Assembly (NCBI GenBank): GCA_964016885.1
Contig: OZ024743.1
Span: 169,260,001 to 169,324,000 of the forward strand
Reading direction: 5' to 3'
DNA: 64,000 bases
Source: Eledone cirrhosa
Taxonomy: Eukaryota
Both the position numbers and the translations under genes were made by a program. Below the pieces are notes generated by a model. That model was not told where the DNA came from, ran no database searches, and was given only the letters and a program-made list of their open reading frames with translations. This document shows, piece by piece, positions 21,236 through 62,229 of the stretch. Every line of letters begins with the position of its first letter. Position 1 is the first letter of the stretch.

Positions 21236-21306
<71 letters not shown>

Positions 21307-21679: not shown

Positions 21680-21719
<40 letters not shown>

Positions 21720-22182
21720 TATATATATGCACATATATCTTTTTGTGTTGCACCATAGAGCATGTGTGTTTACGTATGTCATTGTGTTTATATGTGGGTA
21801 GAGAGGTGTGCTGATGTAGGTATGTATGTTGACGTGTGTATGTTGTGGGTTCGTCTTAGGGAGAAGTGTTTAGACGGGGTCCGTATTTGTTAATGAAGTA
21901 AGATTCCTTGCTGATGCGCTGGGTGTGGGTGGCATTATTTTTAAATTTGTAGAGGGAAAGATTCTGAAGTTGGTAAAAACTTAAAAACTTAAAAACTTAA
22001 AAACTTAAAACCACAACTGAATACTAACCCATACAATCACTAATACTCTTTTATTCCTAATTAAACCATTTTTCAACTGTGAACAATTTGTCAGCATTTT
22101 CTATTCCGTTTACCAATATATAATAACTTGTGTGTTACACCTCTATTCTTTTAACTATCATATCCTCACACGAGATACAGAA

Positions 22183-23449: not shown

Positions 23450-25738
23450 CACAAGACAGGGAGGAGAAACCTATAGTAATAAAAATTATCAATCTTACTA
23501 CTGCAGAACCAACATCCAACCTTATCAACTTACTCTCCAAAGGTCTTAAATTCAGACCGACCTCCCTACGTCCTAACTACTATGAAATGAAGGAAGACAT
23601 CACAGACTTCTGTAGAAAGTTACGACTTAGTGAACAACTATTCGACCAGTACAATGAGGATGAATCATTAGCCAGAAATAGAAGCAATTACACCCCTTCA
23701 AAAGGTAGAAATAAAATCCTGGACGAATTCCGTGAACACATCACAAACTTCCCTTACCAACACTTGCACCGACAAAAACACAAGCCAAACCTCAACAAGA
23801 AAGAATGGGAAGAATTAAATAGATTAAAAACCGACAGAACCATTACAATTAAAGAGGCTGATAAAGGGAGTACAGTAGTCCTAATGGAGACAGAATTCTA
23901 TATCAACTTAGCGCTCTCCACTTTGGAAAACGAAACATACTACGAAAAGGCTGAACACTACAATCAACAGAAAATTAAGAGAAACCTAAAAACTCTAATC
24001 AACCAATACAAAGAAGGACTCACTAACAAGGAATTCAGCTTCATCACAGACATCACAGACTTCACAAGTAAATCCAGCCTTTTCTACGGTATCCCTAAAG
24101 TACATAAAAGCGAATCAATAAGTAAGGCATGCAAGGAAGCCACAGACATAGTCATCAATGTCCCCTCACCCAATGATCTCAAATTAAGACCCCGCAGGCC
24201 CCGCTTGCGTAACGCACCGTCTTAGCAACTTCATTGATACCCTTCTCAAACCCTTCCTCAAGCACATCAAAAGCTATATAAGGGACGACCTAGATATGCT
24301 CAATCACCTCCCTAATATGCCACTTTCTGAACAAACCCTACTAGTGACGTTCGATGTAGTCAACCTATACTCCAACATCCCCCACAACCTAGGAATAGAA
24401 GCTATCCAATTCTAGCTGGATAATTTCCACAATGAACTCCCACAACGCATCAAGAAAGAATTCGTGATAGAGGGACTCAAATTTATCTTGGAGAACAATT
24501 ACTTCGTTTTCAATAACAAACCCTACAGGCAGAAATCTGGGACCGCTATGGGAACGAAAACAGCCCCTACTTATGCCAACCTAGTCATGGGATACCTGGA
24601 AATCACCCTCTACACTAAAGTCCTAAACGAATTTGGAAACACCCTCCACTTACACATTGAAAGGAACTGGAAGCGATATCTAGATGACTGCTTCATCCTT
24701 TGGCACGAAAACATCGAAAAACTTAAAGAATTTCACACCCTTATAAATGGGCTCAACATAAATATTAACTTCACGATGGAATACAGCCATCAACAACTCC
24801 CCTTCCTCGCCATCCTCATTAAGATCCATAACAAAAAAATAGAGACAGACATATACTACAAGCCCACAGACTCCATGCAATATCTCCCCTTCAACTCTTG
24901 CCACCCTAGACACGTTAAAATTAATATTCCCTACAACTTAGCCAAGAGAATCTGTACTATAGTCTCCAATAAAAACATCTGCTACTTACGGCTACAAGAA
25001 CTAAAGGACACACTCATACGCAGGGACTACCCTGCATCACTAATTGACAATGGAATCCAACGTGCCCTAAAACTCAGTACCCAGGACCTTAGACACCCTA
25101 AAGTAAATCAACCAAAACTAAAAGCTCTTCCATACATCACCACACACAACCCCCTCAACAATGAGGCCTTTGACACCATCCTCCAGAACATCCCTGTATT
25201 GAAAAAGGACCATAGAATGAACCAAATTCTACGAACACACGATATCATAAAGAGCAAAAGACAATCCAAGTCAATGAAAAACATCTTAACACATGACAAA
25301 GTACTGCCAACCACAACAACGAAACCCACAGTAAAAAAATGCGATAGACCCAACTGTGGCATTTGCATCAACCTAATAGAGGGTTCGGAATTCTATTTCA
25401 AAGATGGACAACGTTTTATAGTAAAACACAATTTCACATGTGCATCGGAAAATCTAATATATGTATTAACTTGTTCAGGTTGTCGAGAACAATACATAGG
25501 CCAGACCAAAAACAGCCTCCGCCAACGCATGACTGTCCATAGATCCCAAATCAAAATACGGGAATACAGGAAAATACCACTGAGTGAACACATTGATATC
25601 TGTGCCGCCCCAAATCATCCCAACTTCAGAATCTTTCCCCTCTACAAATTTAAAGATAATGCCACCCACACCCAGCGCATCAGCAAGGAATCTTACTTCA
25701 TTAACAAATATGGACCCCGTCTAAACACTTCTCCCTAA
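23416..25738 (+). pseudogene. PLE reverse transcriptase-GIY-YIG ORF, disrupted
   Basis: The -1 frame is open from 23416 through IINLT...LLSKGLKFRPT into ORF 23587-24225. There is a frameshift near 24190 and a TAG near 24413, then ORF 24464-25738 carries YLDD and the GIY-YIG domain. Confidence 0.88.
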
Positions 25739-25874
25739 GACGAACCCACAACATACACACGTCAACATACATACCTACATCAGCACACATCTCTACCCAC
25801 ATATAAACACAATGAGATACGTAAACACACATGCTCTATGGTGCAACACAAGAAGATATATGTGCATATATATA

Positions 25875-25944
<70 letters not shown>

Positions 25945-26275
25945 ATATATATGTGTGTGTATATATATATAGTGAATATCATTTCACACCTTTTATTGTT
26001 AAGATTTTTGATGTTCTATTAAGAGAACCGATTTTACTGAAAAAATCGAATAATGTACACCATTTTACCAGGGGGAAAAAAATACTGGTCCACCCCCACA
26101 CACACACACACATATATATACACACACACATACACACGCGTACATCAACATACAAAGAGACTTATATATACACACCACACACACTTCTCCGTGTAAGACA
26201 AAAGCTGAAAAATATCTTTTGACATGCTTTCAGACACATTCTTACTGACCATCCCTGCCACCACGAATTACTCTG

Positions 26276-26343
<68 letters not shown>

Positions 26344-26939
26344 ATCTTAATAGCCATTTGACACACATCGCTGCTAACCATTATAACAACATCGAACACC
26401 TTACTACTACTACACACACACACACACACACACACACATATTTGTTGTGAAAGAGTCATTTCTCAATCTTGGCGCAAAACCAATTTTTTATTCACATGAC
26501 CTCTACCGACCAATCAAAATTGTTTTGACCACAAGAATTTTTGCTGGGGCCTCTTTTTTAACATAAAAACAGTCTTGGCGCAAAATCAATTTTTTACATT
26601 CACATGACCTCTACCGGCCAATCAAAATTGTTTTGACCACAAGAACTTTTGCAAATTGGAGCCACTTTTTTAACATAAAAACATGTAGAATTCCCAAAAC
26701 TAATCAGATCAGAGCAAACAGCACGGACACTCTATCTCAAAATTATTTTTGAAAAGCATTTAGAAATGCGCAACCGGTAAAAACTTAAAAACTTAAAACC
26801 ACAACTGAATACTAACCCATACAATCACTAATACTCTTTTATTCCTAATTAAACCATTTTTCAACTGTGAACAATTTGTCAGCATTTTCTATTCCGTTTA
26901 CCAATATATAATAACTTGTGTGTTACACCTCTATTCTTT

Positions 26940-26992
<53 letters not shown>

Positions 26993-28199
26993 TATGAAAA
27001 ATAGTAAAGACAATCACAAATCTAACACGCTCAATAATACAAAAAATGTCGTTAGTTTAACGCAGAGGTTCTCAAACAGTTTGACCCCCACCCACGGCCA
27101 CGCAATACCCTCAGCGTCCACACCCCTATTTCCAGAGAGACCTGTCTACACGCAAATTGTATGTAACATATAATAAACACCTTAGGCGAAACAATATTCA
27201 TTGTGTAATGTTTTGTTGGTGTCCAAATGAATAAATTGTTGCTACAGACTCACAGACATATGCTCTCACATACACTCACATACATATACTAAGACAGACA
27301 CACACAGGCATACATTCACGCAGACGCACGCATAGTTTTTCACCTCAATTGTTTTGTCAGTTGCGACATATGTATATGCAAGTGTAGATGTGTGTGTGTG
27401 TATTTAATAACGTACCTAATGAACACGCGCACACACACTCACAGACACATACATATTCATATACAAAATGTGACGCCATTGTGTTGTTTTCTATTGTTTT
27501 AATTCAAATGAAAATAAAAATTATCACACATACACTCACACACACATACACTCTCACATACAGTCACACACACATACACTCTCACACACACACTCTCACA
27601 TACACTCACACACACTCTCTCATACACTCACATACATATACTAAGACAGACACACACAAGCATTCATTCACGCACACCTATTACTTCTCTGTCAACACAT
27701 ATGCATCTGTATGTGTAGATGTGTGCATGTGTTTAATTGTCTGTGTGTGAAGATGTGTATCAACTTACTAAGGTTATATGTATGTGTAGATGTGTGTGTG
27801 TGTGTTTAATTCTGAGGCCTAACGTTAAAATAAAAATTATCATAATACGCTCACACACACATACACTCACACACACATCACTCTCACACACACATACACT
27901 CACACACACACACATACACTCTTACATATATATACTAAGATAGACACATACAGACATACATTCACGCACACCTATTACTTGTCTTTCAACACATGTATAT
28001 ATGTGTGTAGATGTGTGTGTGTGTGTTAAATTCTCTGTGTGTGAAGACAATGTGTATGCAACATACTAAGGCTATATATATGTGTATATGTGTGTGTGTG
28101 TGTGTTTAATTCTCTGAGACCTAACGTACGTAACGAACTCACAAACGCACACGCAGACACATACACACTCATATACAACATACACACTCATATACAAAA

Positions 28200-31539: not shown

Positions 31540-32436
31540 CTGGAAAGTAATATCCTTAGTGATAGAGCACTCAGTCCAAGGGACGAGTTAGGTAGAAGTG
31601 GTTACACAACAGTTAGTTCACCATACCGAGAACAATTGTTTCACCTTAGCGGATCTTCAGCTCGGAATGGGCATGGTTATAGGAACAGGAAGGACAACCG
31701 TACGAACGCGCATGCGCAGAAACCCGGTCACTTCACACAGGCAATACTAGACTGCATGCGACAGGTGTAAGGGAGATAACTGCGAAAGTCCGAAAAAATT
31801 TTAGGTTGAAAATAAAATTACAAAGAATCAGTCCAGAGCCATGTAGTTATGCAATAGGTGTTTGGCGACGTGTGGACAACGTGTAAAAATTTCACTTCTC
31901 GTGTTTAGACAATCACTATTGCGTAATCTCTTTAGAATAGTTATTCGTTCGTCAATACATAAGCCACACGTCGGATTTCTCCTTGCGTATGGCTTGGACT
32001 TAGTGATGGCTTTCCATTGAATGGAGTAGTCTATACTTGAGTCCTTGGGGGACCATACGTGGCACGCGAGTTTCATGAATGAACGCCTGTCCGGGTATCT
32101 GAAGGTAGACTGGTGGTTCAGGAAACGTTCCTTGAATCGGCCCTCCCCTATGCCCACATAGGATTTGCCCTCCTGTGGTTCGTTTGGTCGGTTGGAAGTG
32201 ACCACAGCTTCATCGATTACCCGTTGTCCACACGTCGCCAAACACCTATTGCATAACTACAAGGCTCCGGACTGATTCTTTGTAATTTTATTTTCAACCT
32301 AATAACTTTTTGGACTTTCGCAGTTATCTCCCTTACACCTGTCGCACGCAGTCTAGTATTGCCTGTGTGAAATGACCGGGTTTCTGCGCATGCGCGTTCG
32401 TACGGTTTTCCTTCCTGTTCCTATAACCATGCCCAT
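31540..32436 (-). mobile_element. Truncated PLE (GIY-YIG 3' end) with inverted 3' duplication
   Basis: ORF 31828-32241(-) reads SYVGIGEGRFKERFLNHQSTF...IQW...CGLC...CPH. 31667-31881 and 32222-32436 form inverted repeats. Confidence 0.8.
31626..31665 (-). ncRNA. Minimal type I hammerhead ribozyme in the PLE 3' region
   Basis: CCGAG-CTGAAGA-T-CC-GCTAA-GG-T-GAAA-CAATTG-TT-CTCGG, with a perfect 5-bp stem I and a palindromic stem III. Confidence 0.8.
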
Positions 32437-33460
32437 CATATGCTGAGTCTGGCAAAAAGGTTGGATCCTATGGCCGGCCAGGGCTAGAGTAATATTGAAA
32501 AACGATTCTTTTATCGAAGTAGAAGGATCGGCCATTTGGAGTTCAAACCAGGCCACCTCCCCGAGTTGAACTCTGGGCAATATTGACTGTCTATTAGTCA
32601 GTGGCGAAGAGCTTGGAAATTACTGAATAATTTTTTGTGTCATATAATTTGTTGTTTTATTATTATAGCTGACCACTTATAGATAAGCATGTTATGTATA
32701 TCCGTATTAATTTGGCATTTGTATAAACCATTTCAAGTAAATAGGGACCTTTTTTACATTGACGGACATCTTTTATATTAATTATCTCTATCTATATCTA
32801 CATATAATATAAAAGATTGGAACTTCCATCATCCTTTTGCGAAACATGGAACAACCACGTCGATGCAATGATACACGTATTACAGTCAGGCAGAAGATGA
32901 ACCATCTCCTAGAGTTCACTATTCTAGGTGGGAGCACCTAGAATTGTTCATATACTATGCACAAACGGTACAACGAATAATCTGGTATATCTGGAACATT
33001 TTTTTTACTATTTATTCAATTGCATATATACATACACACATCTATACACATACATGCACGTGCATACGCGAAACGCACGCCGTACGTACATATACCAGCA
33101 CATACACATAAACACGCGCACATGTATGTAAACCAGGCACGACACATATACCTTCACACATACGAACGTTTACACCAAATACACACATATATACATATAT
33201 GTGTGTGTATGTATACATGTATACATGTGTGTGTATATACATGTAAAATATACGCACACACATATACATACATACCTACACATAAATACCTACACATACC
33301 TACACACACATACCTACACGTAAATACATATATCTTCAACAAATGTATATATACCAAAACCATATGTACACATATACACAACATACATACGTGCAAATAC
33401 ACATACACACCTATATATACACATAGACATATATACATATATGTGTATATAAACAATACA

Positions 33461-33538: not shown

Positions 33539-33585
<47 letters not shown>

Positions 33586-33806
33586 GGATTAACAAATAAT
33601 AGTTAAATGCAGTCCACTTAGGTGAAGTCCAGTTATAGTATTCCAGGTAGTGGATGATATTAACGCTTGGCTTGGTTTGACTCAACAAGGCGTTTTCATA
33701 GTGATGCTGCGGGTATGCTGTAATTCTTATGTTGTAAACACTTGGAGTAATAATAAATCAGGAAAGAAGGTTTACATGGTTTGCTATACAAAAAAGTTTT
33801 TAATCA

Positions 33807-33919
33807 CATAGCTTACATTTGTTTCACTGAACTGGTATGTCTAGAGATCGCTATCCGCTTAATTTTGCGTTACTCGATCGCCAATACAGAATTATAACCA
33901 GTCAGATCTTCGGAGCATG
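33807..33919 (-). ncRNA. HHR motif with extended stem II (PLE sense strand)
   Basis: Reverse complement of 37633-37745. Confidence 0.6.
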
Positions 33920-34650
33920 CGAGAATGCAGAAAATACACAGGCAAGAAAAGAAAAGAAAAAATGGAGTAGTTATGGCACTCAATTAGAACAATAACAACA
34001 ATTACAACAATGCTATCAATAAACTATTTAAGGAGACCCTGACATTACTTAGGTGGGGGGTATATAATGTATCTAATGTTACGGCGTGAAAACCAGCTGT
34101 CATAAGGCAAAAAGTATCGTAGTGTGTATCAATTTTAAATTATAAAGATAAGCTAGTTTTTACAGTCTTTCTCTTCATCTTCAACAGTATACATGAGTGG
34201 GACCACTGTCAAAGCTCAATAGTTGTAGAGTTAATACAGAGGTTAACGAATTAATATACGCATATATCTACGCGCACACACACACACATACACATACACA
34301 CACACACACATATGTATATATAAATATATATACACATATATGTGTACATAGACACATACATACACATCAATATACACTCGTACACAAATATACATACATG
34401 CAAAGAGAAAAGCGTGCTAATTGTAATTATGGCAAAAAGAAGGTAAAGTAACATTGTAGTAGTGAAATGAGAAAAACTAGGATCTAGGATCAAATGATTG
34501 CAGCAGCTGAGAAGGAGTAAGATTGTTGGTAGATGAGGTACTTACAGACAATTGTGTGGTATAGACTTGTGAAGGAAATAGTATACTTAATGAATATATT
34601 TCTGTGGGTAGTAGGTATCCTAATTTAAAGCTATGTTATGTTGGTTCGAT

Positions 34651-36640
34651 TCACGGAGGTTTGAATCTTATGAATTTAGTGGCTATTCTATGTCTGCAGA
34701 AGATAGATCTTTCTAACTTATTATTAAGTAGCTTTTTAACATTTCTAAGGATATACAATAGCTCAAGATCACACAGCCCGCAATAGGACATCCCTGTACT
34801 ATAGGTTTTAGCAGCCGACAACTTCGACCAGTTGATAGTGTAGCTAGTGTTGCTGTCCTTCAATTCCCATATTTTTCTGGCGAGGGTGGTGGAACCCATA
34901 AGTGCACGGTTTTTCATTGAGTGCCTGTGCACATACCATCTTTTCTTAAAAGAACCCGCGGTGGATCCTATGTAATTCCAGGTGGAGTTACCCGAGATGA
35001 CAGTGCACATGTACACCAGGCTCGAATCGAGACATCTGTTCGCCAATGGGCACCTACCTGGGAGGTGACAGTTGCAGTTTGAGGCGCTATTTTGTGCAGC
35101 TTTTACATTCCTATTTAGTACCCTGTTATAAGTGGGTTGTGATATATGCCCAATGGGGTTTTGCTGCTGCGCGTTTGTATGCGCTTGTGGTTGTGATGTT
35201 GTGATGAGTTTGTGCTTATGTATAGGTGCAATTGATTTACTTGAGATATTTCTGTGGTTGATCTTGCGTATGTGTGATTCTATGTTAGCTGCTGTTGAGA
35301 AAGAGAGTTTTATAGTAGATCTATTGAGTATTTTGTGATATCTATGCGGGATAGGGAAGTGTTTATCTATTAGTTTAAAGAATGTAGAGGGCAGTCTAGT
35401 TTTTATAGAGGAGTTGAATATTGGGTTGAACCATAGGTATTTTCTTTGTTTGTTTCTTCTATTGTTTCTAGGGTTTACGTTATTAGTGTTTTGGCCGTTT
35501 ACTCTAGGTGTTACATGTCTAACCCTATGTCTAGTCAAGCTATTCCTATTATTATGTGAGCGGTTGGAGTAGAAATTACTAGGATTGTTTATGTTGTCCT
35601 TATTCACTATATACTGTAGTTTATCTTTATGACCGGCCCTACTTAATGCTGCATTATAATAGTCAGCATGCTCGTTAAAGATTTCTAGGTTTGAGGATAG
35701 GCGGGATATTCGGAGGGATATACTACGTGCTATGGATTTAATTATGGATTTGGGGTGATTTGAGTTGTAACTAATGTAGGCAAGATTTTCATTATTTTTG
35801 TGGAAAGGTTCTATTAATCCAGTATTTAGATTTAGAGTTACATCTAGAAAATTTACCTTCTTATGGTTTAGTTCGTAGGTAATACTTAGGCCTAGTTTTT
35901 TGAAGAATATTCTAATATTTTTCCTTAGTCTTTCCATGCTCTGGTTGTTTAGGTTCCTAGCTATAAGTAACGTGTCGTCCCTATAAATTCCTCCTTGGAG
36001 GTTACTGAATTCCTTATGTACGTTGTGTGCTATGAATAGCCCCACGATATCTGTAATTTGCGCAGAATCATTTGATCCCATTGTAATATCGAAGCTATTT
36101 ATTCTATCCTTTCTTACCCAGTAGTTATTTTCAAATTTTACGATAGTCCTTCTAGCCGCTATTATTATTTCAATTTCATCATGGGTAAGATCAGAGTTAT
36201 TTTGGGCAAATATAAGCGCCTTATCTAGGGTAGCTGGGGATATGGATGCATAATAGTCGTCTATATCAAATTGTATGAAGTTACACGTCTCCCTATTTTG
36301 TATTTTATTGAACCATTTAATTGCCGCGTTAGTGTTGTCCCATAAATTGATTTCTAGTTTACCCTTTATTTGTGCGATTACCCTATCTAGAATGTTTTTG
36401 CTAATTTTACCTATGTCTGACTTGGATGGGCATATTAATCTAATGGTGGGATTAGTTTCAAAGTTATTTTTGTGATCTTTCAGGTTAAATGTAGGGTTGC
36501 ACGGGGTAAGCGGTTCGGTCCTATCTGAAATTCCGAGTTTATTAACTATCTTGAGGCCCTCCATGTTTATGCTGGTGAGTGTAGATTCATTTGTTTTTTT
36601 ATATTTTTTATGTAGTTCACGGGTTCTTTTAAGAAAAGGT
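34651..36640 (-). CDS. PLE reverse transcriptase plus C-terminal GIY-YIG endonuclease (open frame, N-terminus lost at the inversion junction)
   Basis: About 660 stop-free codons: RLICPSKSDIGK, FDIDDYYASI, FDITMGS, GIYRDD, FLDVTL, WFNP, CNC....CPL, VYMC..YIGST..FKKR..H, CGLC. Confidence 0.88.
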
Positions 36641-37632
36641 GGTATGTGCACAGGCACTCAATGAAAAACCGTGCACTTATGGGTTCCACCACCCTCGCCA
36701 GAAAAATATGGGAATTGAAGGACAGCAACACTAGCTACACTATCAACTGGTCGAAGTTGTCGGCTGCTAAAACCTATAGTACAGGGATGTCCTATTACGG
36801 GCTGTGTGATCTTGAGCTATTGTATATCCTTTGAAATGTTAAAAAGCTACTTAATAATAAGTTAGAAAGATCTATCTTCTGCAGACATAGAATAGCCACT
36901 AAATTCATAAGATTCAAACCTCCGTGAATCGAACCAACATAACATAGCTTTAAATTAGGATACCTACTACCCACAGAAATATATTCATTAAGTATACTAT
37001 TTCCTTCACAAGTCTATACCACACAATTGTCTGTAAGTACCTCATCTACCAACAATCTTACTCCTTCTCAGCTGCTGCAATCATTTGATCCTAGATCCTA
37101 GTTTTTCTCATTTCACTACTATAATGTTACTTTACCTTCTTTTTGCCATAATTACAATTAGCACGCTTTTCTCTTTGCATGTATGTATATTTGTGTACGA
37201 GTGTATATTGATGTGTATGTATGTGTCTATGTACACATATATGTGTATATATATTTATATATACATATGTGTGTGTGTGTGTGTATGTGTATGTGTGTGT
37301 GTGTGCGTAGATATATGCGTATATTAATTCGTTAACCTCTGTATTAACTCTACAACTATTGAGCTTTGACAGTGGTCCCACTCATGTATACTGTTGAAGA
37401 TGAAGAGAAAGACTGTAAAACTAGCTTATCTTTATAATTTAAAATTGATACACACTACGATACTTTTTGCCTTATGACAGGGTAATGTCAGGGTAATGTC
37501 AGGGTAATGTCAGGGTCTCCTTAAATAGTTTATTGATAGCATTGTTGTAATTGTTGTTATTGTTCTAATTGAATGCCATAACTACTCCATTTTTTCTTTT
37601 CTTTTCTTGCCTGTGTATTTTCTGCATTCTCG

Positions 37633-37745
37633 CATGCTCCGAAGATCTGACTGGTTATAATTCTGTATTGGCGATCGAGTAACGCAAAATTAAGCGGATA
37701 GCGATCTCTAGACATACCAGTTCAGTGAAACAAATGTAAGCTATG
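37633..37745 (+). ncRNA. HHR motif with extended stem II, U4C core variant
   Basis: CATGCT-CCGAAGA-T-CTGACTGGT...ACCAGTTCAG-T-GAAA-CAAATG-TA-AGCTATG. Confidence 0.6.
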
Positions 37746-37793
37746 TGATTAAAAACTTTTTTGTATAGCAAACCATGTAAACCTTCTTTCCTG

Positions 37794-37846
<53 letters not shown>

Positions 37847-42074: not shown

Positions 42075-42340
42075 CCTTTAGTGACTAAATGTAATTGTAG
42101 AATTCTTGATAATTGCCCATTTGGAGGTAAATGTCTTAAAACTAATGTTAGTTATAGATGTGAGGTTTCAACTAGGGATAATTGCTTTAATTATATAAGT
42201 GCTACTGCCAATAAATTAAAAACTGGATTCTATACTCATGCTCATTCTTTTAAAGACAAGAAGCTGAAAAATACAACTTCTCTGGCAAAATTATTCTGGT
42301 CCCTTAATGAAGATAAGATTAATTATAATATTAAATGGTA
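42075..42340 (+). pseudogene. PLE GIY-YIG endonuclease fragment (same type as 34651-36640)
   Basis: KCNCRILDNCPFGGKC....SYRCEV...YISAT...H.HSF...TSLAKLFWSL...IKW. Confidence 0.75.
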
Positions 42341-42506
42341 TGTGTGTGTGTGTGTATATACATATATTTATGTATATTTATGTGGATGTTATTTTGTATG
42401 TACGGGCTTACCTCTTTCAATTCTATATATTTCAATTTAATTTTTTTATTTATATTTTTATATATTTATTTGTATGTGTATATATATTTCTCTATATATA
42501 GTTTTA

Positions 42507-43216
42507 TATAGTAGAATAATCGAGAATCGGAATATCAGCCCACGAAATCACGATAAACAATATCCGACATGCGTGGCAGAGGGCTCATTAATTTGGATAA
42601 ATCAGAGCTATAACTATCGTTAAAATACCAACTCATAGAGAACATGCCTAAAATCACCCATGCAGCCGAAAAAGAACGACCAGGAAGATTCGGGTTACTC
42701 AAATAAAATATCAATAAATTAATAAATTAAATGAATGTAAAAAACTCACCCGGACCCGCTAGAAAGATGTTAAATCTAGCTTCTTGGGTTTCTGCAATTC
42801 CTTAATCCAATCACTATCAGCCCACATAAAAATATATAAGACTTCTAGAGAAGGGACAAACGAGGAAAGGCTTCGTCAACGAGTTTTCGTCCAATAATAC
42901 AGAGGGGACCCAAGGACAAAAACGCACATGGTATTCAGCAAGGGAGGGAACCCCTATATTAGCGAAAGAATTCGGTGATGTGTAAATTATATAAGAATAC
43001 AAATTATCACATATCGAATCAGAGTGCTCAACAGACGTGTTAAAATAAACAAGAGCTATTCAACAGTCAATAAGATCAACAAAAAAAAATCATCAATAAA
43101 ATTAACTGGTCAATAGCTAAGGTCTAGAGTTAAATATAGTAGAATAATCGAGAATCGGAATATCAGCCCACGAAATCACGATAAACAATATCCGACATGC
43201 GTGGCAGAGGGCTCAG
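42507..43216 (-). mobile_element. Diverged relative of the 617-bp repeat: 628-bp unit plus ~80-bp terminal repeat, HHR at 42748-42884
   Basis: The reverse complement aligns along the whole array unit (e.g. TATTTTAACGATAGTTATAGCTCTGATT, GAGCCCTCTGCC, GAAGCTAGATTTAACA, GGGTCCGGGT). GTAGAATAATCG occurs at 42511 and 43139. Confidence 0.85.
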
Positions 43217-43479: not shown

Positions 43480-46400
43480 GCGGGGTGGTCGTCAGTCATC
43501 CCGTCTAATTGGATATGGTATACTGGCACATAGTCAAACAAGGAAGAAGGAACATACCTCAGTATTATGTTATAGAAACATTTTTAATTAGAGCAATTAA
43601 AAGAATATATTCAAATACATCAGTGCTCCTAGGTTGGGATATATTTTAGTCATCATATAAAACCGCATGGTGTGATATCGTCCTTTGGATCACTGCGTCT
43701 ATTTACCCCGAGGAGATCATCGTTTAATAAATATTGTTTCAGCTACTGACGTCAGAACGTGACGTCAGAACGTGACGTCAGAACTAAGGGCAGTTAATCT
43801 ACTGCCTTCCCAGTCGACGCTAGATGGCGTGATCTTCTACATGGCCTCCCACCATATTTTTAGAAAATTAAATAAAAATCGGTTCATCGAATCATGTATG
43901 TGGAAAAACCGATTAGCAACCATCAAAAATCCCAAACCAAGGAGCAATCAGCCCAACCGAGCCTGAAGAGCACAATAAATTTAAAAAATACATACTAAAC
44001 AAGTATGGAAGAACGTGAAGGGAAAAGAAAAACAAATGTAATAAAATGTAAATACAATTTCCTAAAAGTTCCAATAGTCACTACAGGATTAAAGCACCGC
44101 ACAATAGCAGTTTAAAGATATACCGTGCTACACAGTTTTTTTGGCCAATAAACCCTCCGACCGGAACGGGTCGTAGTCTTATATCTTGGTGATGGGGGGG
44201 GGGGGGAGAAGCAGGTGTGTGTGCAAAAGAGAAAGATGGGGTGTATGTGGCTCAGTTGTATGTAGCATCTGTGTGGGCCCGTTTAAGTCTATCAACCGCA
44301 ATGGTCTCTCTGGATCCCTTAATATCTACAGTGAAATGTTTATCAGAACGAGCCAACACACGGTAGGGTCCAGAGTACGGTTGTGTGAGAGGTGGTCTCA
44401 CAGCATCGTTTCTTACGAATACATGGGTCCACGAGGCAATATCCCTCGGGACTGCATATTTTACAGTTTGTTTCCTCGTATCCATCGGCGGCAGGTCCTG
44501 AAAATAAGAACGCAGATGGGATACGTAGGAAAGCGGATCTTGTGCAGCAAGATCGACAGGGGCAAGCATTTGCCCAGGCAACGCTAGAGGAGCACCATAC
44601 AATAATTCGGCCGGGGAGAACCCAAGGTCCTCCTTTATTGATGACCGAATCCCCAACAACACAATAAGGAGGTACTCGCTCTAACGCGTAGAGTCAGGAA
44701 AAGTCCGTAAAGCGGCTTTTAGTTGTCGGTGGAAACGCTCCACCATTCCATTAGAGGCAGGATGATATGCAGTCGTTCGGATGCGTTTAGCGCCGATGAT
44801 TTTCGTTAATTCATGGAAGAGATTCGATTCAAGCTGTCTTCCACGGTCCGTTGTAATCGTGGTTGGCACTCCAAAGCGGGAAATCCATCCTGATACTAGG
44901 ACACGCGCTGTCGTTTCAGCAGTGATGTCTTTCAAGGGGATGGCTTCAGGCCATCGCGAAAAACGATCAATAACAGTCAATAGATAAGTATGACCACCAC
45001 TGACTGGCCAAGGTCCCACGATGTCCACATGAATATGCCGGAAACGAGCGTCCGGTGTACTGAACGTACCGAGCGGAGCCTTAACCTATTTATGGATTTT
45101 CGATTTCTGGCAAGGGATGCAGGAACGGCACCAAGCAGTAATATCGCGCCTCATATTTGGCCAGAAGAATCTGTCTGTTATGAGCTTTACTGTGGAAGAA
45201 GATCCTGGGTGGGACATGGTGTGTAAAGCAAGAAACACAGTACGACGATGGTTTAGCGGGACGAATGGTCTCGGTGAATCCACGGAAACGTCGCAGAGAA
45301 TCTGTCCGTCTGCCGTGGGCAATGGCAGGTATTTCAAATTACTCGTCGCAAATTCGGCTGATGTAATATCCAACGATTTCAGTGCAGGGAACTGATCGGC
45401 AATCGAGACAGGGCGTCAGCCGCTGTGTTTAATGAGCCTGGAATGTGTTGGATGTCGTTTGTGAATTGCGAGATAAAGTCGAGATGCCTTCTTTCTCTGA
45501 GCGAGTACTTGTCAGACTTTGTCCTTAAAGCGAAGGTCAAAGGTTTATGGTCAGATAGATTGTAAAACACCTTCCTTCGAGCATATGTGAAAAATGTTTC
45601 ACGGAAAGGTAGATGACTAACAGCTCCCGGCCAAAGGTGCTGTAGCGAGTTTCTGCAGGCTTCAACTTCCTGGAGAAAAATTCCAATGGTTGTTGGTGAT
45701 CGTCACTACTCTGTTGTAAGACTGCACCCACTGCAGTATCCGACGCATCAACACAAAGCGAAAGCTTTGCATTGGACACTGGGTGGGCCAGCAAATATGC
45801 ACTAGCCAATGCTGATTTGGCTTTTTGAAAATCCTCGGGCTGAGTCTGAGCCAAAGAGATGTCCTTATTTTTCTTGCGGCAATTTTTCAGAATGTCAGTA
45901 AGAGAGAAGAGTAGATTAGCACAATGCGGAACAAAACGTCTATAGAAATTTATCCGTCCTAGGAATTGTCACAACTGACGAAGTGAGGTCGGCGGAGGCA
46001 AATCCTCTATAGCCTGAACTCGTTGAGGGAGGGGTCAAATACCTTCGGAGTCAATGACATGACCTAAAAAATTCAGCGATTCCGCACCGAAAACACATTT
46101 TGTGGTATTTATTTGAACACTGTAATCCTTTAGCCGACAAAACAAAAGATTCAAATGACGTATGTGTTCTTCTCTGGAGGAACTAGCAATAAGCAGATCA
46201 TCAATATAAGTGTAGACGAAGTCTAAACCACGAGTGACCTCATCCATGAACCATTGAAAGGTGCTAAGTCTGAAAGGCATGGTAAGAAATTCAAATGATC
46301 CAAATGGAGTCGTAATGGCCGTTTTCGGAATATCTTCTTTCTTGACAGGAATCTGATGATAGGCTCGCACCAAATCGAGCTTCGAGAATATTTTATATCC

Positions 46401-47325
46401 CTGCAATGACGATGCAAAATCTTGCAGGTGTGGAATAGGATATCTATCCGGGACAGTTATAGCATTTAACTTCCTATATTCCCCAGTGGGTCTCCAGTCG
46501 CCAGAAATCTTGGGTACCATGTGTAACGGAGAAGCCCAAGGGCTTGTAGAAGGGCGAATTATGCCTAGCTGCAGCATGTGGTCGAACTCGGACCGTGCTG
46601 CCTTCAATTTGTCCACAGGCAAGCGACAAGGACGTGAGAACACTGGGACGCCAGTTGTAGAGATAAAATGCTCCGTTGTGTGAGTCGGTTCAACAACTCG
46701 AAAATTTCCCTGAGTAAGCTGTGGGAAAGAATTCAACAATGCATCATAGGGATTCCCAGCATTAGCGATGAAAAAGGTCGGGCTAACTGTTGGAAAATTA
46801 GCTTTCTGGCCACGAAGAGAAAAAAACAGTAATGTCGTCTACTAGGCGTCGGCCACGGACGTCCACCGTCAATGCAAAATGGTGTAGAAAATTCGCTCCC
46901 AAGATCGGATATGGTAGGTCAGCAACCGTAAAAATACATTTGAATTCTCGTCGAAGATTTCTGAATTGCAGAGGAAGCGAGATTTGTCCAAAAGTCCGTA
47001 TCGGCGAATGATTGACAGCTTGTAGAATCATTGATGACTCAGGAGGAGTTACTGTCATACAATTGACAGGCCAAATACTGCACGAAGCTCCTGTGTCTAC
47101 GAGGAAGGCTTTTCCAGACACGAGGTCCTCTATGAAGAATGGCGGTTCTATTGTGTCTCGCAGAGTTCACTTGCCGCCTTTAGTGACTCTGATCTACATT
47201 TCCCGAAGCTGAATATTTACATGGAGGCCGGCAATGTTTTGCCTTATCCGCGAAGGTGGCATGATACCAGCAAAATAATGGATTGCTGGTGGGCGAAGTA
47301 GTATGCTGACGTGAAGTCGCGAAAG
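43480..47325 (-). mobile_element. Ty3/Gypsy LTR retrotransposon, 5'-truncated in gag, related to 4429-9252
   Basis: Minus strand: gag CWYH..F...A..C..PC, LVDTGAS, YIDD, DASD..VGAVL, and integrase HPG..Cxx[14 protein letters not shown]. The 3' LTR starts TGTAGAAGATC at 43841 after the PPT GGTGGGAGGCCA; its far end is approximate. Confidence 0.9.
43747..43780. promoter_or_regulatory. Three perfect CRE palindromes (TGACGTCA) at 13-bp spacing in the LTR
   Basis: TGACGTCA at 43747, 43760 and 43773; function untested. Confidence 0.5.
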
Positions 47326-47389
47326 AACAGATAAAAAATATCAATAAAACAATACGTCAATAATTTAAATAGTTTTCCATTTATTTAAT

Positions 47390-47441
<52 letters not shown>

Positions 47442-47910
47442 ATTAAATAAATGGAAAACTATATTTATAAAACCATATTTATTTCATTATATATATTTCG
47501 GGGATATCATATTAACAATATGCTATGCCTTCATCAGACAAAATACAATATAAACAGTTTTATAGATAAATATATTCGACATACCGTAATAAACATCAAC
47601 TTCATTTGAAGAGGTTCACTCTAGCAGTGAAAATACAGAGAGAAAGAAAGAGAGAGAGAAAAGAGGGAAATAAGAAAGAAAGAAAGACAAAACGAAGAAA
47701 AGGAAGAAAAAGAAGAAAAAGAAGAAATGCATGGGACAAAATAGAGAGATGGAAAAATAGATAAAGCGAAGAGCTTCATGTAAAGAGACCGAAAGAGATA
47801 TATATATATATATAGAGAGAGAGGAAATAGAGATAGATACATATATAAATATAGATATAGAAAAATTAGGTAGTGGGAGGTCATTTTGAGTAAGTGTATC
47901 AATGATGCAT

Positions 47911-47945
<35 letters not shown>

Positions 47946-48752
47946 GCTCAAGTATTAATGTAAGGGAGATATATAGAGAGATATAGAGAGATATAGAGAG
48001 AGAAAAATTTAAAAATAGCCAGACATATTCGAGGCGTAGAAAACCCTATGTTTTAATGTATTAGTATTTATAAAACTTACACTATATTGTAAATATCAGT
48101 ATTCCTGAATGAAACAAGTATTCACAATGCGTGAAAATTCATTATCTTATGTTTAGTTTTTTAAAAAAAATTCATATGTCTATGTGAATCCAACTGATTC
48201 ACTCCGCAAATTCAAAGTTACCGGAAAACATTCTCAATGTGGTATAAAAATTTGAGCGTATTATTATTCTTGCGATTACTCTACAAGATTATCTATCAAG
48301 CAGAAATAGAGAGCAGATTTCAATATACTAATCGAAAATATATATTATATTATAAGCAGAGATAACAATAATAATGATAATAAGTAAAAATATATAAAAA
48401 TATAAAAATATAAAAATATAGAATAGAAAACTAAAAAAGAATATTACGAAAGAATATTACATAATAAAAATATTGCATATTAAAAATACTACGTATTAAA
48501 AATATTACGTATTAAAACTTTACATATAAAAATATAAAAAACTAAACATAAGATAATGAATTTTCACGCATTGTGAATACTTGTTTCATTCAGGAATACT
48601 GATATTTACAATATAGTGTAAGTTTTATAAATACTAATACATTAAAACATAGGGTTTTCTACGCCTCGAATATGTCTGGCTATTTTTAAATTTTTCTCTC
48701 TCTATATCTCTCTATATCTCTCTATATATCTCCCTTACATTAATACTTGAGC

Positions 48753-48787
<35 letters not shown>

Positions 48788-49256
48788 ATGCATCATTGAT
48801 ACACTTACTCAAAATGACCTCCCACTACCTAATTTTTCTATATCTATATTTATATATGTATCTATCTCTATTTCCTCTCTCTCTATATATATATATATAT
48901 CTCTTTCGGTCTCTTTACATGAAGCTCTTCGCTTTATCTATTTTTCCATCTCTCTATTTTGTCCCATGCATTTCTTCTTTTTCTTCTTTTTCTTCCTTTT
49001 CTTCGTTTTGTCTTTCTTTCTTTCTTATTTCCCTCTTTTCTCTCTCTCTTTCTTTCTCTCTGTATTTTCACTGCTAGAGTGAACCTCTTCAAATGAAGTT
49101 GATGTTTATTACGGTATGTCGAATATATTTATCTATAAAACTGTTTATATTGTATTTTGTCTGATGAAGGCATAGCATATTGTTAATATGATATCCCCGA
49201 AATATATATAATGAAATAAATATGGTTTTATAAATATAGTTTTCCATTTATTTAAT

Positions 49257-49305
<49 letters not shown>

Positions 49306-49364
49306 ATAAATGGAAAACTATTTAAATTATTGACGTATTGTTTTATTGATATTTTTTATCTGTT
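47326..49364. repeat. Near-perfect ~830-bp inverted repeat with ~375-bp spacer (PLE pLTR-like)
   Basis: 47326-48162 is the reverse complement of 48536-49364. Each arm has an HHR-like motif (CTGATGA-AGGCATAGCATATT..AATATGATATCCCC-GAAA at 49161-49202) and a (TA)n-centred mini-palindrome. Confidence 0.93.
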
Positions 49365-52300
49365 TGTCCCGAATCTTCCTTTATCGATTTTATATCGTAT
49401 GGTTGATTGTAGACTTGTTCTATATGTTACGGTATTTTAACGATAGTTATAGCTCTGATTCATCTGAATTATTGAGCCCTCTGCCGCTCATGTCGAATCT
49501 CGTTTATCGTGAACTCGTGCGCCGATTTTTCGATACTCGATCTTTCTAATATATTTAGCTCTGGACATAGCTATCCACCAGTTAATTTTATTGCTCATTT
49601 TTTGTCGATTCTATTGAGTGATGAATAGCTTTTGTTTTATTTTAACATGTCTATTGAGCACTCTAATTCGATATGTGTATTTCCACATTCACTCGAATTG
49701 TTTTCGCGGATATAGGGGTTATCTCCCTTGTCTAATGCCATGTGCGTTTTTCACTGGTAGTTAGCTCCTCTACCGCCAGGAAAAAAGCTCGTTGAGAAAG
49801 TAAAACTCCGTTCCGCTTGCTCTAGTAAGCTTTTATATTTATATGTGAGCTGATAGAGTACAGTCTAAGGATTTACAGAAACCCATGAAGCTAGATTTAA
49901 CACCTGTCTAGTGGGTCCGGGTATGATTTTACATTCATTTAAATTATTGACGTATTGTTTTATTGATATTTTTTATCTGTTTGTCCCGAATCTTCCTTTA
50001 TCGATTTTATATCGTATGGTTGATTGTAGACTTGTTCTATATGTGACGGTATTTTAACGATAGTTATAGCTCTGATTCATCTGAATTATTGAGCCCTCTG
50101 CCGCTCATGTCGAATCTCGTTTATCGTGAACTCGTGCGCCGATTTTTCGATACTCGATCTTTCTAATATATTTAGCTCTGGACATAGCTATCCACCAGTT
50201 AATTTTATTGCTCATTTGTTGTCGATTCTATTGAGTGATGAATAGCTTTTGTTTTATTTTAACATGTCTATTGAGCACTCTAATTCGATATGTGTATTTC
50301 CACATTCACTCGAATTGTTTTCGCGGATATAGGGGTTATCTCCCTTGTCTAATGCCATGTGCGTTTTTCACTGGTAGTTAGCTCCTCTACCGCCAGGAAA
50401 AAAGCTCGTTGAGAAAGTAAAACTCCGTTCCGCTTGCTCTAGTAGGCTTTTATATTTATATGTGAGCTGATAGAGTACAGTCTAAGGATTTACAGAAACC
50501 CATGAAGCTAGATTTAACACCTGTCTAGTGGGTCCGGGTATGATTTTACATTCATTTAAATTATTGACGTATTGTTTTATTGATATTTTTTATCTGTTTG
50601 TCCCGAATCTTCCTTTATCGATTTTATATCGTATGGTTGATTGTAGACTTGTTCTATATGTGACGGTATTTTAACGATAGTTATAGCTCTGATTCATCTG
50701 AATTATTGAGCCCTCTGCCGCTCATGTCGAATCTCGTTTATCGTGAACTCGTGCGCCGATTTTTCGATACTCGATCTTTCTAATATATTTAGCTCTGGAC
50801 ATAGCTATCCACCAGTTAATTTTATTGCTCATTTTTTGTCGATTCTATTGAGTGATGAATAGCTTTTGTTTTATTTTAACATGTCTATTGAGCACTCTAA
50901 TTCGATATGTGTATTTCCACATTCACTCGAATTGTTTTCGCGGATATAGGGGTTATCTCCCATGTCTAATGCCATGTGCGTTTTTCACTGGTAGTTAGCT
51001 CCTCTACCGCCAGGAAAAAAGCTCGTTGAGAAAGTAAAACTCCGTTCCGCTTGCTCTAGTAGGCTTTTATATTTATATGTGAGCTGATAGAGTACAGTCT
51101 AAGGATTTACAGAAACCCATGAAGCTAGATTTAACACCTGTCTAGTGGGTCCGGGTATGATTTTACATTCATTTAAATTATTGACGTATTGTTTTATTGA
51201 TATTTTTTATCTGTTTGTCCCGAATCTTCCTTTATCGATTTTATATCGTATGGTTGATTGTAGACTTGTTCTATATGTGACGGTATTTTAACGATAGTTA
51301 TAGCTCTGATTCATCTGAATTATTGAGCCCTCTGCCGCTCATGTCGAATCTCGTTTATCGTGAACTCGTGCGCCGATTTTTCGATACTCGATCTTTCTAA
51401 TATATTTAGCTCTGGACATAGCTATCCACCAGTTAATTTTATTGCTCATTTGTTGTCGATTCTATTGAGTGATGAATAGCTTTTGTTTTATTTTAACATG
51501 TCTATTGAGCACTCTAATTCGATATGTGTATTTCCACATTCACTCGAATTGTTTTCGCGGATATAGGGGTTATCTCCCTTGTCTAATGCCATGTGCGTTT
51601 TTCACTGGTAGTTAGCTCCTCTACCGCCAGGAAAAAAGCTCGTTGAGAAAGTAAAACTCCGTTCCGCTTGCTCTAGTAGGCTTTTATATTTATATGTGAG
51701 CTGATAGAGTACAGTCTAAGGATTTACAGAAACCCATGAAGCTAGATTTAACACCTGTCTAGTGGGTCCGGGTATGATTTTACATTCATTTAAATTATTG
51801 ACGTATTGTTTTATTGATATTTTTTATCTGTTTGTCCCGAATCTTCCTTTATCGATTTTATATCGTATGGTTGATTGTAGACTTGTTCTATATGTGACGG
51901 TATTTTAACGATAGTTATAGCTCTGATTCATCTGAATTATTGAGCCCTCTGCCGCTCATGTCGAATCTCGTTTATCGTGAACTCGTGCGCCGATTTTTCG
52001 ATACTCGATCTTTCTAATATATTTAGCTCTGGACATAGCTATCCACCAGTTAATTTTATTGCTCATTTTTTGTCGATTCTATTGAGTGATGAATAGCTTT
52101 TGTTTTATTTTAACATGTCTATTGAGCACTCTAATTCGATATGTGTATTTCCACATTCACTCGAATTGTTTTCGCGGATATAGGGGTTATCTCCCTTGTC
52201 TAATGCCATGTGCGTTTTTCACTGGTAGTTAGCTCCTCTACCGCCAGGAAAAAAGCTCGTTGAGAAAGTAAAACTCCGTTCCGCTTGCTCTAGTAGGCTT

Positions 52301-53244
52301 TTATATTTATATGTGAGCTGATAGAGTACAGTCTAAGGATTTACAGAAACCCATGAAGCTAGATTTAACACCTGTCTAGTGGGTCCGGGTATGATTTTAC
52401 ATTCATTTAAATTATTGACGTATTGTTTTATTGATATTTTTTATCTGTTTGTCCCGAATCTTCCTTTATCGATTTTATATCGTATGGTTGATTGTAGACT
52501 TGTTCTATATGTGACGGTATTTTAACGATAGTTATAGCTCTGATTCATCTGAATTATTGAGCCCTCTGCCGCTCATGTCGAATCTCGTTTATCGTGAACT
52601 CGTGCGCCGATTTTTCGATACTCGATCTTTCTAATATATTTAGCTCTGGACATAGCTATCCACCAGTTAATTTTATTGCTCATTTTTTGTCGATTCTATT
52701 GAGTGATGAATAGCTTTTGTTTTATTTTAACATGTCTATTGAGCACTCTAATTCGATATGTGTATTTCCACATTCACTCGAATTGTTTTCGCGGATATAG
52801 GGGTTATCTCCCTTGTCTAATGCCATGTGCGTTTTTCACTGGTAGTTAGCTCCTCTACCGCCAGGAAAAAAGCTCGTTGAGAAAGTAAAACTCCGTTCCG
52901 CTTGCTCTAGTAGGCTTTTATATTTATATGTGAGCTGATAGAGTACAGTCTAAGGATTTACAGAAACCCATGAAGCTAGATTTAACACCTGTCTAGTGGG
53001 TCCGGGTATGATTTTACATTCATTTAAATTATTGACGTATTGTTTTATTGATATTTTTTATCTGTTTGTCCCGAATCTTCCTTTATCGATTTTATATCGT
53101 ATGGTTGATTGTAGACTTGTTCTATATGTGACGGTATTTTAACGATAGTTATAGCTCTGATTCATCTGAATTATTGAGCCCTCTGCCGCTCATGTCGAAT
53201 CTCGTTTATCGTGAACTCGTGCGCCGATTTTTCGATACTCGATC

Positions 53245-53255
<11 letters not shown>
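49321..53255 (+). repeat. Tandem array of a 617-bp HHR-containing unit, about 6.4 near-identical copies (retrozyme-like)
   Basis: Units start at 49321, 49938, 50555, 51172, 51789, 52406 and 53023 (partial). Only scattered single-base differences were seen. The array ends at (TA)n. Confidence 0.97.
49787..49922 (+). ncRNA. Type I hammerhead ribozyme, U3-A8 core, enlarged stems II and III (repeated at +617-bp intervals, six copies up to 53007)
   Basis: GCTCG-TTGAGAA-A-GTAAA.TCC...GGA-TTTAC-A-GAAA-CCCA-tgaag-CTAGA..TCTAG-TGGG-TC-CGGGT. Pairing is preserved in the diverged copy at 42748-42884. Confidence 0.72.
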
Positions 53256-53302
<47 letters not shown>

Positions 53303-57640: not shown

Positions 57641-57829
57641 AGAGAGATATATTTTAACTTTAATTATATCTCATAAAATAATACAACTGGCTTTTCCACA
57701 TAATACATATTGTTAGCACTCCAAACATTAAATTGGGTTATATTAAAATATAACCTAATGTTTGTTGAGTGAGATGGTTAACAGTCAGAGATTAGCTTTA
57801 AACTATCTCTGTTATTGTATTAATTATTA

Positions 57830-60244
<2,415 letters not shown>

Positions 60245-60247
<3 letters not shown>

Positions 60248-60948
60248 CTATATCCAAAATTAAGATAAATTAAATGAATTTAACCGAAATCGAAATTGTG
60301 TGTGTCATGCCATAACGGCGTGCGCCATATCGCCCGGAAAATAAGCTCAAAGATTCTATCGTGTAGGTCCGAGCATCTTATAATAACTAGAAATTGATTA
60401 ACATATATATAAACATGAATAATCACAGGAGATAATTTTTACAAGCGTGTAACCACGCATAGCTAGTTGGGTAACAAATATATAAAGTTGACTAGAACTT
60501 CATAAATAGATACCTTTTAATATGATTAATCTTCCCTGTATATATTCCATTAAAGAAATATATTTCACCAATTAATCAGATGGTAAGTCACGAAAAGTGG
60601 ATATTATTGGATTATCAACAAGGAAGAACAATGTCCAGCAATCCATGCTTACACAGCGATTTCAAACCTGCAACTGGCCGCTACCACGTGTTGTGTTTAC
60701 ACATCACAGCAGCTTCGTCTCAGTGGCGTGGAAAGGTATTCGACAACTAGAAACAGCAGTCGATTCCTTTCAACAGAATTAGCTCTACAATTAAGGAGCC
60801 GTATTTATATATCTATATCCAAAATTAAGATAAATTAAATGAATTTAATCTGAATCGAAATTGTGGGTGTCATGCCATAACGGCGTGCGCCATATCGCCA
60901 GGAAAATAAGCTCAGAGATTCTATCGTGTAGGTCCTAGCATCTTATAT
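60245..60948. repeat. ~560-bp unit plus ~135-bp terminal direct repeat between (TA)n tracts
   Basis: TATCTATATCCAAAATTAAG...AGCATCTTATA occurs at about 60245-60382 and about 60810-60947. Confidence 0.8.

Positions 60949-62229
<1,281 letters not shown>

What the first reader, a model, noticed from the sequence alone, without database searches (positions are those of the whole stretch)
42507..43216. Diverged sister copy keeps the ribozyme pairings and the same 3' end
Seen: an opposite-strand 628-bp unit plus about 80 bp of repeat, clearly diverged from the array. It keeps the HHR fold: stem I ACUCG/CGGGU (G-U becomes A-U), core UUGACGA, stem II GC..UUCCU/AGGAA..GC, and stem III ACCC/GGGU with GCUAGA/UCUAGC. 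It ends at the same internal position (TTCTA[A/C]TATAT) as the array. Inference: structure-preserving changes indicate selection on an RNA fold. A shared 3' end with greater-than-unit length fits priming at a fixed site on a circular or multimeric RNA.
Basis: partly seen in the sequence, partly recalled or inferred. Interest (0 to 1): 0.75.

Follow-up and report, generated by a model that had tools for sequence, protein, structure and literature searches.

The report
Hammerhead retrozyme sharing Penelope start signal
This is one copy of a protein-free, roughly 620-base jumping repeat found thousands of times in TA microsatellites of this animal genome; it carries a predicted self-cutting RNA motif, almost always ends at one fixed site, and shares the 12 letters at that site with an intact Penelope-like retrotransposon whose enzyme likely copies it, probably from a circular RNA.

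Summary
42506-43215 (minus strand) is one 628-bp unit plus an 81-bp repeat, 75% identical to the 617-bp array at 49320-53259. It is a separate lineage of a family with at least 2,914 insertions, not a decayed array copy. 164 of 167 insertions examined end at the same site, mostly followed by (TA)n. 5' ends vary but pile up just 3' of the predicted hammerhead cut (23 of 83; replicate 17 of 59). The hammerhead core is fixed across lineages, with N7 free and U3 always facing A or G. The last 130 nt also covary. The read-through at the fixed end (TATATTTAGCTC) is identical to that of a young Hydra-clade Penelope-like element with an intact ORF. So the fixed end most likely reflects internal initiation by that enzyme, and it does not by itself show a circle. 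Evidence for a circle comes from haplotype-pure arrays. Cleavage and expression are untested, and stem I is not predicted to form at equilibrium. The window copy is probably a dead end. It is a new member of the animal retrozymes. This scan has noted similar Hydra-dependent families in this genome before.

The parts
42506..43215 (-). Whole insertion: 1.13 units of a non-coding hammerhead repeat (S lineage) in degenerate TA/CA microsatellite, no target-site duplication seen
   Evidence: no stop-free frame of 120 aa or more inside it
42507..43134 (-). Full 628-bp unit (S1-628)
43135..43215 (-). 5'-truncated second pass (S548-628), matches the unit's 3' end exactly
43127..43138 (-). Read-through of the start site at the unit junction, TATATTTAACTC here; the family form TATATTTAGCTC is in 45 of 52 junction contexts, and this variant is in 1 of 52
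42748..42884 (-). Predicted type I hammerhead: stem I 42884-42880 with 42752-42748; core U3-A9 42879-42873; extra A 42872; long stem II 42871-42794; extra A 42793; G12-A14 42792-42790; stem III 42789-42754 with extra hairpin; C17 42753
42719..42752 (-). 34 nt just 3' of the predicted cut, where family 5' ends pile up
   Evidence: 23 of 83, 17 of 59, 7 of 41
42507..42635 (-). Conserved 3' RNA domain (three-way junction plus terminal stem) directly upstream of the fixed end
   Evidence: 6 of 29 pairs with changes on both sides in 27 copies
49320..53259 (+). Young array of the A lineage, 6.4 x 617 bp, core UUGAGAA (U3-A8), same fixed end followed by (TA)n
33580..36657 (-). 5'-truncated Hydra-clade Penelope-like element, a member of the candidate partner family; ends in TATAT then (TA)n; inverted arm at 36620-37799

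Best explanation
This is a copy of a non-coding hammerhead-bearing repeat (a non-LTR retrozyme) that is likely copied into TA microsatellites by the enzyme of a Hydra-clade Penelope-like element, which would start reverse transcription at one fixed internal site of the RNA. Inferred cycle: (1) rare multimeric source copies are transcribed. (2) The hammerhead cuts after GUC, giving linear pieces and probably ligated unit-length circles. (3) The Penelope protein binds the structured 130 nt upstream of the start site and the hairpin just downstream, nicks (TA)n and primes on UAUAU. (4) It copies until it falls off, or until it meets the cut end or stem III just 3' of the hammerhead; going round a circle gives 1.x to 19 units. 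Shown: fixed 3' end, TA target, variable 5' end with a hotspot at the cut, lineage-level conservation, the shared 12-mer, and an intact partner ORF in the genome. Inferred: transcription, cleavage, circularisation (about 0.6) and which enzyme acts. The window copy has one hammerhead and a private change in the start-site motif, so it is probably a dead end.
For: At least 2,914 dispersed termini. 164 of 167 insertions end at one site, and 160 of those 164 are followed by TA-rich sequence; this includes 14 of 14 found by a mid-unit query. 5' hotspot 3' of C17: 23 of 83, p=6e-11; replicate 17 of 59, p=2e-8; two 5' ends lie exactly at C17+1 (L159, L284). Windows with longer TA runs caught only 1-4 ends. 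The 11 canonical core positions have no lineage-level variant, N7 takes all four bases, and position 8 is A (56) or G (45) opposite U3 in 101 copies. The 3' domain covaries. A Hydra-type element (RWK, DKT, CxCX5C motifs, 808-aa open frame, copies about 98% identical) ends in (TA)n in 93 of 100 listed rows and reads through as TATATTTAGCTC in 7 of 100, the same 12-mer as the repeat's read-through. Cut-to-start distances are similar: 247, 254 and 234 nt (the partner's hammerhead was read by eye). At least 7 of 19 young arrays carry a variant in every unit that is seen in no other array sampled. There are 0 indels near C17 in 132 units.
Against: No cleavage or RNA data. Stem I has about zero probability in ViennaRNA ensembles of both window units. 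The core is non-canonical (U3, and an A facing an A at the base of stem II) and Rfam does not hit it. Only 3 of 34 hammerhead pairs change on both sides, a number that 441 of 500 shuffles reach. The 5' hotspot fits polymerase stalling at stem III equally well. Apart from the 12-mer there is no BLAST similarity to the Hydra element or to 20 regions upstream of related ORFs; those relatives keep only an AGCTC/GGCTC-type hairpin start. One 17-unit array shows a 4-unit higher-order pattern, so some arrays grew at the DNA level or from a multimer. Unlike the partner, this repeat rarely has an inverted second arm (1 locus among 159 records).
Confidence: 0.72

Rival explanations
1. Same Penelope-dependent mobilisation, but from linear multimeric transcripts only. 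The hammerhead merely trims 5' ends or is vestigial, and no circle forms.
For: Internal initiation on linear RNA is shown for an anole Penelope element, where hammerhead cutting was dispensable (PMC11167929, parts 1-2 read). 615-bp arrays at different loci are identical, as copies of one long master would be. Stem I is not predicted to form.
Against: About 14 array-wide haplotypes among 19 young arrays need frequent single-unit bottlenecks. Linear copying alone only shortens arrays, yet the youngest lineage has the longest ones. The core is conserved across all lineages.
Confidence: 0.17
2. Insertions arrive as short or monomeric copies, and multimers form later by unequal crossing-over (satellite-like DNA amplification).
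For: The 17-unit array at G000:C4:157.18 Mb has a repeating 4-unit variant pattern. Some variants are shared by two units of one array.
Against: Arrays of 14-19 units in the 615-bp lineage have 0-3 singleton differences among the units examined and nearly the same haplotype at five loci. Older lineages that had more time are mostly under two units: 3 of 83 have two hammerheads, and 0 of 11 against 11 of 14 loci have two or more.
Confidence: 0.07
3. A SINE-like or LINE-mobilised element whose fixed end is simply the RNA's 3' end with a (UA)n tail, the hammerhead-like fold being incidental.
For: Ladder-like tree of subfamilies, as in SINEs. Structured 3' domain.
Against: Seamless head-to-tail units lack an internal TA tail. 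The sequence 3' of the end is conserved although it is never copied there, and it matches a Penelope element. The variation pattern of the core follows hammerhead rules.
Confidence: 0.04

Closest known systems
Metazoan non-LTR retrozymes (Cervera and de la Pena 2020, PMC7229834: passages, sections 14 and 17 read, supplement not readable; Li, Clavereau and Pollet 2026, 10.64898/2026.07.22.740005: parts 1-3 of 5 read, supplements closed)
   Same: ORF-less tandem units with one type I hammerhead each, monomers to multimers, unit size within the 51-972 bp range reported, co-occurring with Penelope-like elements, rolling-circle reverse transcription proposed.
   Different: Larger than the 170-400 nt invertebrate examples. 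Non-canonical core with long stems II and III. The parts read describe no fixed 3' end, TA targeting or start signal shared with a named partner. RNA circles were shown there and not here.
Hydra clade of Penelope-like elements (Craig et al. 2021, PMC8557442: passages, section 11 and a supplement search)
   Same: (TA)n target, fixed 3' end, 5' truncation, partial tandems, hammerhead about 240 nt upstream of the end, same 12-mer at the end as the young family in this genome.
   Different: No ORF and no wider sequence similarity. It uses one end only and almost never has an inverted arm. Four family motifs were absent from the paper's supplement.
Anole Poseidon element PAc (Frangieh et al. 2024, PMC11167929: parts 1-2 of 4 read)
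   Same: Reverse transcription starts inside the RNA, downstream of a hammerhead, on AT-rich nicked DNA, which fixes the genomic 3' end.
   Different: PAc is autonomous, has two start sites and primes without homology. Here there is one site, with UAUAU matching the target.
Minimal hammerheads of Penelope-like elements (Cervera and de la Pena 2014, PMC4209133: parts 1-2 of 4 read)
   Same: U3-A8 core variant, an extra nucleotide after A9, long helix II, short helix I.
   Different: Here helix III is long and stable, a second extra nucleotide lies before G12, and U3-G8 is common. The last two features were not seen in the parts read.

Membership tests
Type I hammerhead ribozyme | Core U4 G5 A6 N7 .. 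A9, G12 A13 A14, A15.1-U16.1, H17 in type I order | tested here: met
   No lineage-level variant in 101 copies; N7 free
Type I hammerhead ribozyme | Pair between positions 3 and 8 (canonical C-G) | tested here: inconclusive
   U-A 17, U-G 13 of 30, never C-G; U3-A8 is a published variant (PMC4209133); the window copy has the wobble
Type I hammerhead ribozyme | G10.1-C11.1 directly flanked by A9 and G12 | tested here: not met
   G-C pair in 30 of 30, but with an unpaired base on each side
Type I hammerhead ribozyme | Stems I, II, III form | tested here: inconclusive
   Stems II and III predicted (0.66-0.99), stem I about 0; two double changes in basal stem II, stems I and III nearly invariant
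Type I hammerhead ribozyme | Rfam hammerhead model match | tested here: not met
   the long insertions may explain it
Type I hammerhead ribozyme | Self-cleavage after C17 | not testable with these tools
   Indirect only: 5' ends pile up 3' of C17
Non-LTR retrozyme | ORF-less tandem units each with a type I hammerhead, dispersed in the genome | tested here: met
   the window copy itself has only one hammerhead
Non-LTR retrozyme | Expressed as unit-length circular RNA | not testable with these tools
Non-autonomous Hydra-clade Penelope-like element | (TA)n target, fixed 3' end, variable 5' truncation, partial tandems | tested here: met
Non-autonomous Hydra-clade Penelope-like element | Sequence shared with an autonomous element at its end | tested here: inconclusive
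   12 of 12 at the start site; nothing further by BLAST against 30 loci of the family, its 3' UTR and 20 upstream regions; most of the 38,648 first-look candidates were not examined
Non-autonomous Hydra-clade Penelope-like element | Inverted 5' arm and second end (tail) | tested here: not met
   1 locus among 159 records

The most novel reading that the evidence does not exclude
The family is a genomic recording of a Penelope reverse transcriptase running round a ribozyme-closed RNA circle. One 12-nt start signal borrowed from a currently intact Hydra element sets the 3' end, a non-canonical hammerhead (U3 with A or G8, a mismatch at the base of stem II) is active and sets a per-pass stop, and only one of the partner's two start sites is kept. 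With near-identical 14-19-unit arrays and an intact 808-aa partner ORF in one genome, retrozyme mobilisation can be reconstituted in vitro.
Probability: 0.4. Interest if true: 0.65.

Novelty: new member of a known kind. Interest (0 to 1): 0.42.

Why it matters
How animal retrozymes move is open in print: Penelope-like elements are proposed as helpers from co-occurrence and phylogeny (PMC7229834; 10.64898/2026.07.22.740005). This family names a candidate helper with an intact ORF, a start site known to the base and a shared 12-nt signal, so the in vitro assay of PMC11167929 can test it directly. It also offers a natural hammerhead variant whose tolerated changes can be read from about 100 copies. 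Searches found no paper on this link or on cephalopod retrozymes. The class is known, however, and this scan has already noted several comparable families in the same genome.

Tried and rejected
Rfam scans of the window and of the unit gave no hammerhead, only microsatellite-driven miRNA matches. The gapped hammerhead pattern had a wrong spacer, so its blank means nothing. Run search: no RNA holder listed; three contig runs of one sample hold the family as DNA, which says nothing on expression. A depth peak over the 3' junction suggested that other element families share it, but the 30 deviant loci fetched were all further lineages of this same repeat. BLAST of the units against Hydra loci and upstream regions found no wider homology. 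The idea that U3-G8 explains the short length of older copies was dropped: short older copies include both A8 and G8 lineages, and age and array collapse confound it. TA microhomology alone as the cause of the 5' hotspot was rejected. The literature search for core-variant terms returned nothing. Look-ups of earlier findings by sequence and by nearby place were empty. L185, a 29-bp stub that does end at the fixed site, was mis-chained by the script and dropped from the 84-insertion sample. L391 ran off the fetched stretch and was dropped from the replicate.

Full report
Observation. The minus strand of 42506-43215 holds one 628-bp unit and an 81-bp repeat that matches the unit's end. It is about 75% identical to the 617-bp array at 49320-53259 on the plus strand, and both end at the same internal position. 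Two details differ: an unpaired base lies on each side at the base of stem II, and the terminal stem I pair is not conserved (A-U 16, G-U 6, unpaired 8 of 30). No stop-free frame of 120 aa or more lies in the unit or the array. Rfam gives no hammerhead match.

Family. The window lies in a 3.0-Gb animal genome; I did not determine the organism. Exact patterns give 2,461 hammerhead 26-mers, 589 S-type 3' motifs and 2,914 termini followed by TA, each against 0 for the reversed control; these are lower bounds. A tree of the 3'-most units collected is ladder-like, with the window copy and the array on separate long branches. The 'sister' is therefore another lineage, with relatives at 93-98% identity.

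Ends. Pooling all loci fetched up to, 164 of 167 distinct insertions end at the fixed site and 160 of these 164 are followed by TA-rich sequence. The three exceptions are one locus with an inversion, one next to an assembly gap and one that runs into unrelated sequence. Much of this pool was found through the 3' end, but 14 of 14 insertions found with a hammerhead-region query also end there. 5' ends vary. In a position-ordered sample (first 100 of 589 rows, 84 insertions, one dropped), 23 of 83 start within 34 nt 3' of C17 (p=6e-11); the stop rate there is 0.74% per base against 0.07-0.14% on either side, and 5 of 11 copies stop there on the second pass. A second sample, mostly other lineages (60 loci taken from the first 100 of 2,914 rows and not held before, one dropped), gave 17 of 59 (p=2e-8), with a mode 14 nt after the cut at a TA and only 1 of 8 stopping on the second pass. 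Young arrays gave 7 of 41 (p=0.007). Two copies start exactly at C17+1. Windows with longer TA runs caught 1-4 ends, so microhomology alone does not explain the hotspot. A cut RNA end and stalling at the stable stem III cannot be told apart here.

Fold. In 101 copies the 11 canonical core positions have no variant shared by three or more loci, N7 takes all four bases, and position 8 is A (56) or G (45) opposite an invariant U3. The extra A after A9 becomes C in the youngest lineage. Shared variants occur at 5 of 33 core and stem columns and 246 of 593 others (p=0.003). Rare variants are equally frequent in both (0.72% and 0.78%), so selection acted on source elements and not on inserted copies. 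Other parts of the unit are about as well conserved (for example 10 of 50 variable columns at S51-100 and at S401-450). Covariation in the hammerhead is modest: 3 of 34 pairs change on both sides, which 441 of 500 shuffles reach, and two of these are single lineage events in stem II. The last 130 nt fold into a three-way junction and a terminal stem with 6 of 29 pairs changed on both sides (15 of 500 shuffles; structure derived from the same alignment). Against activity: stem I has about zero probability in the ensembles of both window units, while in the window copy stems II and III score 0.66-0.99. Penelope hammerheads are reported as weak or protein-assisted (PMC4209133, PMC11167929).

Partner. 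The Penelope-like element at 33580-36657 belongs to a young family with 808-aa open frames and RWK, DKT and CxCX5C motifs, which fits the Hydra clade, a (TA)n inserter. Its copies end in TA runs in 93 of the first 100 of 476 rows, and in 7 of 100 they read through as TATATTTAGCTC into the ORF leader. The repeat's read-through at its own fixed end is the same 12-mer in 45 of 52 junction contexts; the window copy alone has one changed base. The part after TATAT is never copied at a 3' end, so its conservation points to a signal on the template and to internal initiation, as shown for the anole element (PMC11167929). The distance from predicted cut to start site is 247 (S), 254 (A) and 234 nt (partner, hammerhead read by eye). 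Limits: there is no further BLAST similarity, 20 regions upstream of related ORFs lack the exact 12-mer and keep at most the hairpin start, and the repeat has an inverted arm at only 1 locus among 159 records, whereas the partner copy in the window has one.

Circle. Each young array is nearly uniform for its own haplotype. By my count there are about 14 haplotypes among 19 arrays, and at least 7 arrays carry a variant in every unit that no other sampled array has. No indel lies within 6 nt of C17 in 132 units of 18 arrays, and five arrays of the 615-bp lineage differ by 0-3 singletons among the units examined and share nearly one haplotype. In the first 100 rows, 11 of 14 loci of one type had two or more hammerheads against 0 of 11 of the older type. 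Repeated copying of one unit-length template is the simplest account. Against it: one 17-unit array has a 4-unit higher-order pattern, linear transcripts of uniform arrays would also give uniform daughters, and old arrays can collapse to 1.x units. I put the circle at about 0.6.

Comparison and verdict. It works like the non-LTR retrozymes of PMC7229834 and 10.64898/2026.07.22.740005 and carries the insertion footprint of Hydra-clade elements (PMC8557442). It meets the structural definition of a retrozyme; circular RNA and cleavage could not be tested, and the hammerhead fails the strict canonical descriptor. Papers were read in part as listed under Closest known systems; the supplement of PMC7229834 and those of the preprint could not be seen and may list related elements. 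Searches found no report of this family or of a shared start signal. Earlier notes of this scan describe other Hydra-dependent retrozymes in this genome, most with two ends, and some with a shared start signal; these are unchecked leads. I noticed the 12-mer, after one search had shown a note about hairpins shared with Penelope elements. Verdict: real, a new member of a known kind, useful as a test system; interest 0.42.

Noticed in passing
window 47326-48163 and 48535-49364: 99% inverted duplication of about 840 bp that includes the first 45 bp of the young array, so it formed with or after the insertion. The flanking sequence resembles a stretch in L343 and may be another repeat.
   Followed up: partly
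G000:C1 13.09, 36.02, 44.27, 49.83 Mb (L261-L268): 615-bp lineage with arrays of 14-19 units, almost identical within and between loci: likely active very recently. The extra A after A9 is C in this lineage.
   Followed up: yes
G000:C4:157.177-157.188 Mb (L121, L122): 17-unit S-lineage array with a repeating 4-unit variant pattern and a 72-bp tail-to-tail inverted piece.
   Followed up: partly
L312:475-615 (pLTR of the Hydra family; also in window 33800-33930, minus): Hammerhead-like fold read by eye, with core CCGAAGA, a mismatch at the base of a long stem II and a GUA site.
   Followed up: partly
window 22127-25738 (+), inverted repeats 20612-21973 and 25620-26995: Second, different Penelope-like element with RT and GIY-YIG Pfam hits, broken into several frames.
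   Followed up: partly
window 42080-42340 (+) and 31828-32256 (-): Hydra-type endonuclease fragments; the first lies just beside the finding on the other strand.
   Followed up: no
window 5121-8536 (+) and 44235-47166 (-): Two broken LTR-retrotransposon pol-like regions, 65% identical to each other; the label is from reading the translations.
   Followed up: no
window 57828-61946, 61943-62229, 62391-63507: 4.1-kb (TA)n tract followed by a palindrome and an inverted pair of 34-bp tandem repeats.
   Followed up: no
window 32538-32616 (+): Weak Rfam match to an HDV-type ribozyme (27 bits, E 0.66, below the gathering score).
   Followed up: no
G000:C19:16.425-16.428 Mb (L130): The only two-armed locus seen; its forward arm ends about 100 nt early, at a TA run.
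   Followed up: partly
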